Assembly (NCBI RefSeq): GCF_006345805.1
Contig: NC_043018.1
Location: 28,892,001 to 28,956,000 of the forward strand
Reading direction: 5' to 3'
Length of the DNA stretch: 64,000 nt
Source of the DNA: Octopus sinensis
Taxonomy: Eukaryota
Shown here piece after piece: positions 8,829 through 62,570 of this stretch. Made by a program: the position numbers and the translations under genes. The notes under the pieces were generated by a model that saw nothing but the letters and a program-made list of their open reading frames with translations, had not been told where the DNA came from and searched no databases. How positions within the stretch are numbered: position 1 is the stretch's first letter; the number at the start of each line of letters is the position of its first letter.

Positions 8829-9234
8829 AGTTACGGAGATGTACTCGCATAGCAAGTAATTTGATCTGAGATCGTGTGCTGAAACGAAAACAATTGCAGC
8901 GTGGAAGGTGTTTATAAGCCATTTAAGAAACACACAAAAGCCGTTCGATTCACTTTAACATTTAAGTTTAATTTGTCAAAATATTTTCGTCGCTTTAAGA
9001 CAGCGACCTGTTCACTGACAAAGTCCGTGCTGCATCTCGATGCAGCACGGACAAAGACCGTGCTGCATCGAGATGCAGCACGGACTTTGTCAGTGAACAG
9101 GTCGCTGTCTTAACAGGTCGCGGATTTTAGCGACGAAAATATTTTGACAAATTAAACTTAAATGTTGAAGTGAATCGAACGGCTTTTGTGTGTTTCTTAA
9201 ATGGCTTATAAACACCTTCCACGCTGCAATTGTT
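8829..9234. mobile_element. Penelope-like non-autonomous element forming a ~170-bp-arm inverted repeat, with a variant hammerhead motif
   Basis: 8889-9052 is the reverse complement of ~9062-9234. Flanked by TA repeats. HHR-like fold at 8972-9022 (-) and 9086-9151 (+). Confidence 0.7.
8972..9022 (-). ncRNA. Putative minimal type I hammerhead ribozyme, G3-C8 core variant
   Basis: tttgtca GTGAACA g gtcgct-gtcttaa-agcgac GAAA ATAT TT tgacaaa: 7-bp stem I, 6-bp stem II, palindromic stem III (AATATT), UUU triplet. Confidence 0.6.
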
Positions 9235-9351
9235 GTGTATATATATAGTATTATTTGTTTTAGTTACTGGGCTGCGGTCATGCTGGGGCATCACATTGAT
9301 CACATTGATGTGTTTAGTCCACTTCTTATATATATTTATATATATATATAT

Positions 9352-9700
9352 ACTAGCACTATGACCCGGCAATGTCGGGTCATAGTGCTAGTGCATGCAT
9401 ATACAGCTGCGTGCATGCGCACATACACGCGAGTACTGCCCAAATCTCCGACCAATGACTTACAGCTAGCTGGCATTCAATTGGCGTATCAAGTTCCAGG
9501 CATTATGATTGGCTTTAGGATAGAAAATTCATAAAACAGTCATTTCTATTGATTTTTTAATGGCTTTGCGGGGTGACTGGGGAAATGTAAAGATGTGCAC
9601 GACCACCCTCGTACGGTTTTGAATGACCATAGAAAAATTGGATTTGTATAAATGACACACACAGACATTTTGCCGTTATATATATATATATATATATATA
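9352..9700 (-). mobile_element. Non-autonomous Helitron-like element
   Basis: Minus-strand 3' end is a cccg...cggg hairpin followed by CTAG|T (9353-9356). The 5' end runs into (TA)n (tatataacggcaaaatgtctgtg). Confidence 0.6.
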
Positions 9701-9924
9701 TATATATATATATATATGCACAACTTACCCTGTTTGTTGATATTGTTGAAATTCCAATGAAGGTTCCTTGGGTCTAGGTTAGGAACTGGCTTCTTCTACA
9801 TTATATATATATAACCCAGTTGTTAGAGCAGCCTAATCGCGGTCGTAGGGTCGCGGTTTCGATTCCCAGACCGGGTGTTGTGAGCGTTTATTGAGCAAAA
9901 ATACCTAAATAAATAATATATACA

Positions 9925-10420
9925 TTGCTTCACAACCACATGGTTCCGAGTTCAGTCCCACTACCTGGCACTTTGTGTTAGTGTCTTCTACTATAGTCTA
10001 AGAACGACCAAAACCATGTGAGCGGATTTAGTAGACAGAAATTGTAGAAAACATGTCGTATATCTATCTATCTATCTATCTATCTATCTATCTATCTATC
10101 TATCTATCTATCTCTATCTTTCTCTCTCTATATATATATGTATATATATGAATATATATATATATTATATATATATATATTATATATATATATATTATAT
10201 ATATATATATATATATGTATGTGTGTATTTTTTGTGTATGTTTGTTCTCTTTACCATCGCTTGACAACCGGTGATGGTCTACGTAAATTAGTGGTTCGGA
10301 AAATTAGACCGATAGAATAAGTGCTAGGCTTACACAGCATAAGTCCTGGGGTCGGTTTGTTCGACTAAAAGCGGTGCTCCAGCATGGCCGCTGTCAAATA
10401 ACTGAAACAAGTAAAATAAT
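9925..10420 (+). mobile_element. SINE family A, degraded, with internal (TATC)n/(TA)n expansion
   Basis: Head aaccacatggttccgagttcagtcc; tail gcggtgctccagcatggccg...gaaacaagtaaaa. Confidence 0.75.
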
Positions 10421-10434
10421 AAACGTATACATAC

Positions 10435-11594
10435 ATAAATACCTAAGAAGAAACACTAGTGGAATATTCCACTGAAACCCTCAGTAGAATGCAAAGATAA
10501 CCTGCCTGACATAGTAATCTGGGACGAGGAAAAGAAACATAAAAGTTGTTGAAATCAACTGGCCAGTGAATGTTAACTTAAGACTGTAGATCAACGAAAA
10601 CAAAATACATACGCCGAACTATTGAGAAATTTGCAGTTACTCTACCCAGATTATAAGTTCGGGTTTATTCCTGTAACTACTCTTTACTCTTTTTACTCTT
10701 TTACTCTTTTACTTGTTTCAGTCATTTGACTGCGGCCATGCTGGAGCACCGCCTTTAGTCGAGCAACTCGACCCCGGGACTTATTCTTTGTAAGCCCAGT
10801 ACTTATTCTATCAGTCTCTTTTGCCGAACCACTAAGTGACGGGGACGTAAACACACCAGCATCGGTACAAACTAGGGGTACAAACACAGACACACAAACA
10901 CATACACATACATACATATACACATATATACATATATACGACTGGCTTCTTTCAGTTTCCGTCCACCAAATCCACTCACAAGGCATTGGTCGGCCCGGGG
11001 CTATAGCAGAAGACACTTGTCCAAGATGCCACGCAGTGGGACTGAACCCAGAACCATGTGGCTGGTTAGCAAGCTACTTACCACACAGCCACTACTGCGC
11101 CTGGGATATGTGACAGTTAGCCTAACTACTAATCTTGAGTGATTAGACTTCTCAAAACAAGAAAGGAGAAAGCTGTTTCGAAGACTACAGGTCCAAGCCA
11201 TCACTGAAACTGAGAATTTGTAAAAGTTCCTGGAAGTTTATCATTTAAGTAGACATGCGCACGTCTAGACACACAAGTACAAGCATGAGAATACATTTAT
11301 AAAACAAAACACAAATCTGCATATACATCGACACCACATACCGCACATATACACATATATATGCAAAAATACTCTGTTCATGTACTTAAAATTCCAATAA
11401 AGGAGCCTTAGATCTAGGTTAGAAACCGGCTCCTTCTGTATTGGCAAGAAATCTTGAAATATAGCAAAATAATGATATACATACATACATATACAAAATA
11501 CCCAGTTGATGTTGAAATTCCAACGAAGGAGCCTTGGATCAAGGTTTGCATCCGGTTCTTTCTCTATTGGCAAGAAAACTTGGAATAAAACTGA
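10435..11594 (+). mobile_element. 3' remnant of an RLE-type (R4/Dong-like) non-LTR retrotransposon in (CATA)n, interrupted by a SINE, with two tandem 3' UTR tips
   Basis: Translates to ...WNIPLK...PDIVIWD...YAELLRNLQLLYPDYKFGFIPV, matching 59411-59785. The tip gaaattccaa..ggagccttggatctaggttagaaaccggc occurs at ~11370-11476 and ~11500-11594 (also ~9727-9800). Confidence 0.7.
10681..11101 (-). mobile_element. SINE family A, full length
   Basis: Head ggcgcagtagtggctgtgtggtaag through the (gtaaaaga)n tail. Confidence 0.9.
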
Positions 11595-60360: not shown

Positions 60361-60901
60361 TATGTATTAACTGTAAAAAAATCAACATATTATCTTACAG
60401 CTGTTTCAATTTTGCCCTAAGATCAAAATCGAGACAGCTGTAGGAGTATGTGTTGGGTTTTTACTGTTAATAAATTACATTAATGCTACATCTCCATTTT
60501 TTTGTAATTAATCTTAAATATTCATAAACCGAGATTTATAGTTAGACCTATTCTTTTATGAATATCACTATTCACAAAAAATACTAGGCAATGGACCAGT
60601 AATTCATTGGATAATTTTATCCCTTAATGAGGCTATTTTAACCTCTAATTAAATATATATATATATATAGATATATATATACATGTCAAATATTCTGTTT
60701 TTGATCTTTTTATTTAATCCTGAAAATATTCATGTGACGCACGCACACCTTAAGTTTTTACCCACACATATATGTGTGTGTATGTATGTATGTATATGTG
60801 TATATATATATATATTATATATATATATATATATAATATATATATATATATATATATATATATATATATATATATATATATATAATATATATTATATATA
60901 T

Positions 60902-61339
60902 AGGTAATTAGAGGTAATGGTGTCAGTGAGATTCAGGTAATGCTGAATAAGTGCTATGGATAGAGTATAATTAAGTTCCAGATTCGGGGATTATGCGAAT
61001 AAGGGGTTCAACTTAGGTCATATACCAGCGTGTGTATATAATTTTGTTTTTGTAATGAGATAACAAACCAAGACTGTGTAGATTTTAGAACATTTATAAA
61101 TAGGTCTTACAGCAGTTTCTAGGATATTTTTTATATCCCTTCATCGGAGGCTGTGTAAGAAGATGGTTAAGCAATAGTTAATTTAGATAAGATACGAAAT
61201 AAAGAGTCAGGTGGAGGAATGAAAATAGATGTGAAATATGCATGGATATTGAAACAGCTGTAAGACATATTTATAAATGTTCTAAAATCTACACAGCCTT
61301 GTTTATTTTTTATCTCATTACGAAAAAAAAAATTATATA
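60902..61339. mobile_element. Penelope-like fragment with inverted repeat and degenerate hammerhead motif, in (TA)n
   Basis: ~61035-61118 is inverted at ~61251-61339. Minus strand reads CCGATGA a gggatat..atatcct a GAAA CTGCTG TA (61102-61152). The plus arm keeps the palindromic gaaACAGCTGTa. Confidence 0.6.
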
Positions 61340-62187
61340 TATATATATATACAATTAGTTATAGAATTCAGTAAAACCGCAGTACATCAACAAGTAGGAC
61401 GCCAGAAGTGGCTAGGTACAATATCATGGTATTCTCAGCAAAACGAAGTTATCAAGTTTTGATAGACTGCTGTAGATATGTAAGTATCAAATTCAATTTA
61501 AATCTTAGATCGGAATCTGTGGTTATTCCAAAGAGATATATATACACACGGGGTTTAAATTTACGACTGGTGTTTCGTTAGGTTTTTATTGATGTGTTCC
61601 TGCACTACTTCGTAACCTATCTTCCACCATGTTTGGTAAAATTTTAAACAAGTAAGATATCAAACGGGTGAGATAATACATCAATCATGACAAAGCCAAC
61701 CAGCTTCTCTCTCTCTCTTTCTCTCTCTTTTTCTCTCTCTCTCCATATATATATATATATATATATATATATTATATATATAATATATATATATATACAT
61801 GCACAAGATAAATAAGCACGTAGATGTAAAAACAAAGTGGAAAAATAGTACTCAAATTCCAAAGGTTGAGTAATATACTATTTTATTAAGCTGAAAAATT
61901 CTGCACAAACTGTTACTCAGTTTCATGTGGCCGTTAATGAAACATCTGCACACAGAGAGAGGTATATATATATATATATATATATATATATATATATATA
62001 TATATATATATATATATATATATATATATATATATATACACATATATATATATATATACACATATATATATATATTTACATATATATATATACATATATA
62101 TATATATATATATATATACATATATATATATATATATATATATATATATATATATATATATTATATATATATATATATATATATATA

Positions 62188-62359
62188 TAAAGTATAGAAG
62201 CCATCTTATCATGGCTAACCACATTGGGGAGGGGGTTGTTACTGTAGCTTTATAGCCCCAAGAGATCTTCGTCTCTAGCTGGCTCTAAACACGATATCTG
62301 TGTCTTTGGAGTATTTGCAAAGGGAGGCCATCCCTTCCTCGCAAGCCTGAGTGATACGC
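62188..62359 (-). mobile_element. Dispersed partial copy of the 358-bp hammerhead repeat in (TA)n
   Basis: Near identical to 49811-49981. Confidence 0.9.
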
Positions 62360-62374
62360 ATATATATATATATA

Positions 62375-62570
62375 CGCTGGCAAAATAGCGATGCAAGCGT
62401 TTTGGGGTGAATAGAATTGCTTCGATCTTTATAAGGTCGAAGCAAATAAGGACGAAACCCTTCATCAGCTGCCCAAACATAGGTAATTTTCGCAATTTCC
62501 GTGCTTAGGACAGTACTGCACATGCTTAGCTGTAGCAATTCCTAAGGTAGCTAAGTAAGACCGAGGTATA
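62375..62570 (-). mobile_element. Further Penelope-like fragment with degenerate hammerhead
   Basis: gcag CTGATGA a gggt...[inner hairpin]...accc c AAAA cgc ttgc at 62393-62473; GAAA has mutated to AAAA. Confidence 0.45.

What the first reader, a model, noticed from the sequence alone, without database searches (positions are those of the whole stretch)
8829..62570. Window-wide pattern: six unrelated hammerhead-bearing elements, five sharing one integration geometry
Seen: elements at 8829, 21481, 40521, 49759 and 60902 show no obvious shared primary sequence. Each has a longer body with a sense HHR and a shorter inverted copy at its 5' side, so both 3' ends point outward, usually into (TA)n. 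The fragment at 62375 adds a sixth, degenerate motif without a visible inverted copy. The five each have a different self-complementary stem III (AATATT, ACGTACGT, AACGTT, AACTAGTT, ACAGCTGT), and cores vary (CUGAGGA, CUGAUGA, GUGAACA, UUGACGA, CCGAUGA). Inference: a diverse radiation of TA-targeting PLE/retrozyme families at roughly one per 10 kb, in which the stem III palindrome could act as a family-specific dimerisation code for self-cleavage.
Basis: partly seen in the sequence, partly recalled or inferred. Interest (0 to 1): 0.75.

Follow-up and report, generated by a model that had tools for sequence, protein, structure and literature searches.

The report
LINE targets ribozyme repeat's start site
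Five of the six repeats are real, ordinary Penelope-type jumping elements carrying a hammerhead ribozyme motif; the surprise is inside the fourth, where a second jumping gene has inserted again and again at one spot that matches the first base of a U2 RNA gene and is likely a transcription start whose promoter it borrows.

Summary
Five of six elements are real multicopy families with minimal type I hammerhead motifs; the sixth is single-copy and does not parse. The inverted 5' copy, two 3' ends and palindromic stem III are published Penelope-like element (PLE) features; element 1 is the end of a coding PLE (24 of 30 loci, 87). TA bias holds for three families, not element 3. Canonical motifs occur about once per 100 kb genome-wide. 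Palindromes are conserved and covary (87, 88) but are reused by unrelated families, so a 'code' is unneeded. 45 of 47 young copies sit at this site, 28-33 nt before the ribozyme core, in units only 65-79% alike; one sits at U2 +1. A U1-derived promoter motif ranks first at -57 to -59 in 9 of 10 units. Likely promoter hijacking; no RNA evidence. Not found in print; this scan noted it before on other DNA (83).

The parts
8829..9236 (.). Element 1: 5'-truncated end (pLTR) of a coding PLE plus inverted copy; minus arm carries a ~60-nt tail
8972..9022 (-). Hammerhead motif of element 1, core GUGAACA (G3-C8 swap of C3-G8), stem III AAUAUU
   Evidence: core in 27 of 28 family copies
9086..9152 (+). 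Second hammerhead motif of element 1, with a short duplication in loop II
21481..22337 (.). Element 2: inverted pair of a ~580-600-nt non-coding unit, both ends in (TA)n
22066..22156 (+). Hammerhead motif of element 2, canonical core, long stem II, stem III ACGUACGU (mirror copy 21774-21864 on minus)
40519..40935 (+). Element 3: sense copy with motif at 40803-40848 (minimal stem III ACGU) and damaged inverted copy 40519-40629; not TA-associated
49759..50044 (-). Element 4, downstream part of a 358-nt retrozyme-like unit, 3' end in (TA)n
49979..50021 (-). Hammerhead motif of element 4, core UUGACGA, stem III ACUAGU
50027..50044 (-). 3' copy of the 18-bp target duplication
50045..55549 (-). Full-length L1/Tx1-type LINE, frames broken into pieces: ORF1 zinc knuckle 54487-55137; APE 53275-53784; RT 51225-52637; zf-RVT 50383-51537
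55550..55567 (-). 5' copy of the target duplication; contains the predicted +1 at 55563, aligned with U2 +1
   Evidence: +1 is inferred
55615..55622 (-). PSE-like motif 59 nt before the predicted +1, shared with U1 and U2 upstream regions
55568..55806 (-). Upstream partial unit of element 4
55804..55990 (+). Inverted 5' copy of the element-4 unit, ending in (TA)n
60902..61339 (-). Element 5: decayed copy, motif 61104-61152 with family core CCGAUGA; coreless inverted copy 61251-61339
62190..62359 (-). Extra fragment of the element-4 unit without the ribozyme, (TA)n on both sides
62375..62575 (-).

Best explanation
The window holds five unrelated Penelope-type repeat families with minimal hammerhead motifs, likely copied by Penelope enzymes and predicted to cleave as tandem dimers, and the fourth is a 358-nt unit with a U1/U2-like promoter motif into whose predicted transcription start a LINE has inserted independently many times, likely borrowing that promoter. 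Shown: families, inverted 5' copies, two 3' ends, element 1 downstream of an RT+GIY-YIG ORF, fixed LINE site with target duplications in diverged unit subfamilies, one insertion at U2 +1, motif at -59. Inferred: PLE RT starts at the unit's tail and template-switches to give the inverted copy; stem III must be self-complementary because one copy pairs with the next identical copy in the same RNA; the unit's promoter starts RNA at the site, so a LINE inserted there is transcribed from +1, carries ~14 target bases at its 5' end, anneals them to a new target and so is mostly full length; the downstream ribozyme may trim the 3' read-through. Some LINE+unit pieces were probably also copied as cargo by PLE machinery.
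For: 37 of 80 LINE-homologous 3' ends pass a strict hammerhead parse, all with the core 28-33 nt downstream; background 56 of 20,000 and 18 of 8,000. A profile of the non-ribozyme part of the unit hits 34 of 47 young and 12 of 33 older flanks; 2 more young ends abut a truncated unit and 9 abut the target 17-mer and another element's 5' end. LINEs 97.5-99% identical to the window copy sit in units 65-79% identical; trees disagree. 5'-truncated copies with target duplication inside units: L273, L255, L283, L286. L217: full-length LINE at U2 +1, 14-bp duplication, donor target bases at its 5' end. 5' and 3' 'duplicates' differ at sites polymorphic among units (L224, L245, L246, L269, L218). Matrix from six U1 promoters ranks -57..-59 first of ~357 positions in both U2 genes and 9 of 10 units. 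Shared target core TTYATCG is too common (~660,000 extrapolated) to explain specificity. 41 of 47 young copies keep their 5' end. Covariation of stems I-III in 14 copies: 96% paired, 18 double changes.
Against: Only one U2 insertion, and no LINE within 1.5 kb of 20 U1 genes. 21 of 33 older relatives lie outside the unit with no promoter motif at -59 where a duplication was found. The motif was first seen by eye in U2 and the unit; the matrix was anchored on ATCA and +1 in units was set by alignment; L286 fails. LINE copies were chosen by similarity to the window copy and a 16-nt tail pattern. No self-cleavage, start site or circle was observed. No coding partner was found for elements 2-5 (one search tested one PLE family only). 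Shuffle control ignores relatedness; only 3 of 14 pairs change on both sides. Tx1 clade not tested by phylogeny.
Confidence: 0.75

Rival explanations
1. Stem III palindromes are a selected family-specific dimerisation code that keeps different families from cross-cleaving in trans.
For: Conserved within families; compensatory changes GC/CG/AU at the centre between subfamilies; predicted homoduplex -4.8 to -13.3 kcal/mol vs heteroduplex no stronger than -4.6 among element-4 subfamilies.
Against: Same palindromes occur with unrelated stems II among the 100 listed matches (by eye); elements 1 and 3 have duplexes of only -0.2 and -1.7 kcal/mol; published model is pairing of neighbouring tandem copies (PMC4209133), for which self-complementarity suffices.
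Confidence: 0.12
2. LINE and unit form one composite that arose once and is spread by PLE machinery; the LINE is a passenger, not site-specific.
For: Very high full-length fraction; copies with a truncated LINE, no upstream unit and no duplication (L266, L253, L264, L271, L275), and L294 with an inverted unit abutting a short LINE tail.
Against: Near-identical LINEs in units 65-79% alike; truncated copies with duplications; U2 insertion; stacked LINEs of different subfamilies at one site.
Confidence: 0.1
3. The LINE is site-specific by DNA sequence alone (endonuclease preference plus RNA-DNA homology of read-through target sequence); coincidence with a start site is incidental.
For: Young targets share TT(C/T)ATCG, also at U2 +1; Tx1 specificity is attributed to the endonuclease (PMC4494074 passage); no U1 insertion seen in 20 loci.
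Against: Target duplications differ widely among unit subfamilies while the distance to the -59 motif is constant; the shared core is very common. Does not exclude promoter borrowing.
Confidence: 0.35

Closest known systems
Minimal hammerheads of metazoan PLEs (Cervera & de la Pena 2014, PMC4209133, parts 1-2 of 4 read)
   Same: Type I minimal motif, palindromic stem III, dimer model, many diverse families per genome, pairs on opposite strands 100-700 bp apart, core covariants.
   Different: That paper reports U3-A8; element 1 has a family-wide G3-C8 (known as a partly rescuing double mutant, PMC11167929); element 4 U3 with G8, element 5 U4C.
EN+ PLE insertion structure (Craig et al. 2021, PMC8557442, passages; Frangieh et al. 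2024, PMC11167929, parts 1-2 of 4)
   Same: 5' truncation, partial tandems, inverted 5' copy, optional tail from two RT start sites, (TA)n or AT-rich targets.
   Different: Tails here are about 45-110 nt rather than 30-40; element 3 is not TA-biased.
Metazoan non-LTR retrozymes (PMC7229834 passages; 10.64898/2026.07.22.740005 parts 1-3 of 5); newt satellite 2 with snRNA-type promoter (cited in PMC2220036; original not held)
   Same: Non-coding ~350-nt tandem units with type I hammerhead, likely PLE-mobilised; snRNA-type promoter precedent.
   Different: No LINE parasite described in the parts read; circular RNA not shown here.
Target-specific Tx1 LINEs: Tx1L in Tx1D, Keno in U2, Tx1-Mar in Mariner-N4_AMi (PMC4494074, passages)
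   Same: APE-RT LINE inserting at a fixed site in another mobile element or in U2; target-derived 5' ends and transcription from the flank discussed.
   Different: Target is a hammerhead retroelement, and the site coincides with U2 +1 and a predicted snRNA-type start 59 nt behind a PSE-like motif.

Membership tests
PLE-type minimal type I hammerhead | Core CUGANGA...GAAA...NUH or covariant with stems I and II | tested here: met
   Elements 1-4 parse in the window; element 5 at family level. Element 6 not met.
PLE-type minimal type I hammerhead | Short self-complementary stem III | tested here: met
   18-28 of 28-29 copies per family; compensatory change at the central pair.
PLE-type minimal type I hammerhead | Self-cleavage as dimer | not testable with these tools
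   Needs an in vitro assay; 8 of 9 predicted Xenopus dimers did not cleave in 10.64898/2026.07.22.740005.
EN+ Penelope-like element | ORF with RT and GIY-YIG upstream of the repeat | tested here: met
   Element 1 only: GIY-YIG over Pfam cut-off (RT part recognised from recalled motifs); repeat 0.8-1.1 kb downstream, same strand, in 24 of 30 loci.
EN+ Penelope-like element | Coding partner for elements 2-5 | tested here: inconclusive
   None in +/-1.5 kb of 30 loci each against one PLE protein; other PLE families not searched.
EN+ Penelope-like element | Inverted 5'-truncated copy and alternative 3' ends (tail) | tested here: met
   Upstream inverted copy in 22/28, 11/28, 17/29, 15/29, 10/29 loci (elements 1-5; some element-1 loci are two arms of one insertion), downstream 0-1; ends at ~241 and ~285 in element 4.
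EN+ Penelope-like element | (TA)n insertion bias | tested here: inconclusive
   Met for elements 1, 2, 5; weak for 4; not met for 3.
Non-LTR retrozyme | Non-coding tandem unit of a few hundred bp with type I hammerhead | tested here: met
   Element 4 period 358, element 2 period 578-602. No tandem unit seen for 3 and 5; element 1 is a PLE end.
Non-LTR retrozyme | Linear and circular monomer RNA | not testable with these tools
   Only contigs, none on record as RNA.
Target-specific Tx1-clade LINE | ORF1 with CCHC knuckle; ORF2 APE-RT; target duplication | tested here: met
   (knuckle just under cut-off).
Target-specific Tx1-clade LINE | One target in more than 20% of flanks (criterion of PMC4494074) | tested here: met
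   45 of 47 young, 12 of 33 older ends.
Target-specific Tx1-clade LINE | RT groups with Tx1 rather than L1 | not tested
   No named reference among homologues; Tx1 label rests on recalled motif resemblance.

The most novel reading that the evidence does not exclude
A LINE lineage finds its target by position, tethered to the snRNA-type initiation complex, and has tracked successive hammerhead-retrozyme subfamilies because each carries such a promoter: a three-tier parasite (LINE on retrozyme on PLE) that takes its 5' end from the host promoter, possibly its 3' end from the host ribozyme, and sometimes rides the PLE machinery.
Probability: 0.35. Interest if true: 0.8.

Novelty: new variant of a known kind. 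Interest (0 to 1): 0.6.

Why it matters
The pattern as first described is known biology. The LINE is what matters: it points to how retrozymes are transcribed (an snRNA-type promoter inside each unit, with a predicted base-exact start) and suggests a targeting route for an APE-type LINE that gives mostly full-length 5.5-kb insertions at a defined site. Both are directly testable, and precise full-length site-specific insertion is of interest for retrotransposon-based gene delivery. Element 1 adds a natural, family-wide G3-C8 hammerhead core.

Tried and rejected
Rfam scan of the window: the 150 rows shown of 288 were microsatellite noise, no hammerhead family among them. Repeat finder swamped by microsatellites. 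Sixth motif rejected. No RNA holder listed; contigs from four runs cover unit and LINE tail and one bridges the junction, but show no strand, start or level; not used as evidence. Rfam on 18 non-unit LINE sites found only a 5S rRNA away from the junction: no sign that these are other snRNA genes. PSE-like 7-mer not seen in 250 nt upstream of the motif in 7 sampled copies of elements 2, 3, 5. L227's PLE fragment is not the partner of element 4. No clustering of 5' breakpoints at the cleavage site was evident by eye. Dropped rows: of 97 tail-motif ends, 17 lacked LINE homology; my de-duplication wrongly removed one real tandem junction (L236); L240, L247, L251 were missed by the motif; L230 and L245 have deletions in the slice used for the tree; L212 is a parse error among the 13 mismatched duplications. 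Lunse et al. 2017 and Coats et al. 1994 were not held: seen as reference titles only. No supplements were opened; Repbase entries may already record this LINE's target.
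Full report
Observation. The window lies in a 2.7-Gb animal genome (G000). Self-BLAST shows inverted partners for the five main elements, and the five are unrelated to each other. A hammerhead scan finds 3 perfect-core sites against 0.03 in shuffles and 4 palindromic sites at one mismatch against 0.07. 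Each is a multicopy family (884-4,604 first-look candidates, 40 scored each). The sixth motif has one match in the genome, itself, and no parse.

Geometry and target. An inverted copy lies upstream in 10-22 of 28-29 loci per family and downstream in 0-1. (TA)4+ follows the 3' end in 28, 24 and 21 of 30 loci for elements 2, 1, 5 (background 18-31%), 10 of 30 for element 4 (19%) and 1 of 30 for element 3 (9%). Inverted 5' copies, tails and TA bias are described for PLEs in PMC8557442 (passages); internal RT starts that make the tail in PMC11167929; minimal palindromic dimer-type hammerheads, their diversity and opposite-strand pairs in PMC4209133 and PMC3088659. Element 1 is tied to a coding PLE: a protein with C-terminal GIY-YIG retrieved 30 loci, 24 of which carry the element-1 repeat 0.8-1.1 kb downstream on the same strand. 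Elements 2 and 4 occur as partial tandems of 578-602 and 358 nt, like retrozymes (PMC7229834 passages; 10.64898/2026.07.22.740005).

Density and code. The canonical pattern gives 28,906 matches against 2,174 for the reversed control: about one per 100 kb as a lower bound, so one per 10 kb is not shown genome-wide. By eye about 71 of the 100 listed matches have a self-complementary stem III (G-U allowed), and several palindromes recur with unrelated stems II. Within the element-4 superfamily the centre of the palindrome changes by compensation, and homoduplexes are predicted more stable than heteroduplexes. This shows selection for self-pairing, which an in-cis tandem dimer requires; it does not show selection for orthogonality.

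The LINE. Element 4's body is a 5,505-nt LINE (zinc knuckle, APE, RT, zf-RVT) between two identical 18-mers. I fetched 99 loci around top hits and a 16-nt tail pattern. Of 97 motif ends 80 have LINE homology; 37 are followed by a strictly parsed hammerhead, always with the core 28-33 nt away (background 0.2-0.3%). A profile built from the non-ribozyme part of the unit hits 46 of 80 flanks. Of 47 young ends, 34 abut a unit, 2 a truncated unit, 9 the target 17-mer followed by another element's 5' end (7 with LINE homology, 2 by eye), 1 a U2 gene and 1 a PLE fragment. Older relatives are less strict: 12 of 33 in diverged units, 21 elsewhere, often with 11-17-bp duplications.

Independent insertion. 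LINEs 97.5-99% identical to the window's sit in units only 65-79% identical, and the trees disagree (LINE tree mostly unresolved). Truncated copies with duplications lie inside units (L273, L255, L283, L286). Some copies lack upstream unit and duplication, and L294 has an inverted unit against a short LINE tail: probably cargo of PLE machinery.

Start-site model. In L217 a full-length copy sits at the first base of a U2 gene (Rfam) with a 14-bp duplication, and carries the donor unit's target bases from the aligned +1 at its 5' end. In several unit loci the 5' and 3' copies differ at sites polymorphic among units, as expected if the 5' copy comes from the RNA. U1 genes (20 loci), both U2 genes and the units share ATCAGT at about -59; a matrix from six U1 promoters ranks that position first in both U2 genes and 9 of 10 units. 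I infer an snRNA-type promoter in the unit, starting about 25 nt before the core, and a LINE that lands there and is transcribed from it; annealing of target-derived 5' bases would explain why 41 of 47 young copies are full length. Against: one U2 case, no LINE near 20 U1 genes, a motif first noticed by eye, and no RNA data. Whether targeting is by sequence or by tethering is open.

Comparison. Tx1 LINEs that target other transposons or U2 are known (PMC4494074 passages); an snRNA promoter in a hammerhead satellite is known for newt (cited in PMC2220036). Searches for Tx1 with retrozyme, Tx1 with hammerhead and target-specific, and Tx1 with snRNA promoter/SNAPc found no paper on this arrangement; subscription journals and Repbase were not searchable. 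After reaching this reading I found that the scan's earlier unchecked notes report the same on other DNA; they are not counted as support.

Verdict. The site-specific LINE at a predicted snRNA-type start inside a hammerhead retroelement is a new variant of target-specific LINEs. Interest 0.6.

Noticed in passing
window 8972-9022 and family loci L091-L120: Family-wide G3-C8 hammerhead core in the terminal repeat of an abundant coding PLE; papers read report natural U3-A8, and G3-C8 only as an engineered double mutant.
   Followed up: partly
G000 C6 ~92.14-92.16 Mb (L235, L236); also L221/L276, L241, L242/L243: Head-to-tail arrays of two or three full-length LINEs separated only by the target 17-18-mer; some arrays mix LINE subfamilies 64-83% alike (L214, L216, L222, L244, L249).
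   Followed up: partly
L288, L308, L310, L257, L281 (3' flanks): Older LINE relatives share another repeated landing site unrelated to the unit, with a 14-16-bp duplication in two cases; identity unknown, no Rfam hit in L288 and L310.
   Followed up: partly
listing, contig C1: An abundant hammerhead family alternates between a Watson-Crick palindrome and a variant that stays self-complementary through G-U pairs.
   Followed up: no
window 40510-40521 and 40939-40950: About 12-bp direct repeat flanking element 3, a possible target duplication.
   Followed up: no
window 47301-48588: Mariner-type DNA transposon: 40-bp terminal inverted repeats and a 251-aa DDE transposase frame.
   Followed up: no
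window 31675-32181 and 59411-60366 (minus): Fragments of other LINE-like coding sequence.
   Followed up: no
window 41196-41520 and 57787-58111: 325-nt SINE-like repeat, 99% complementary pair 16 kb apart; many further SINE copies in the window.
   Followed up: no
window 16683-16941 and 9341-9403: Other local fold-back structures of SINE-like pieces without a hammerhead.
   Followed up: no
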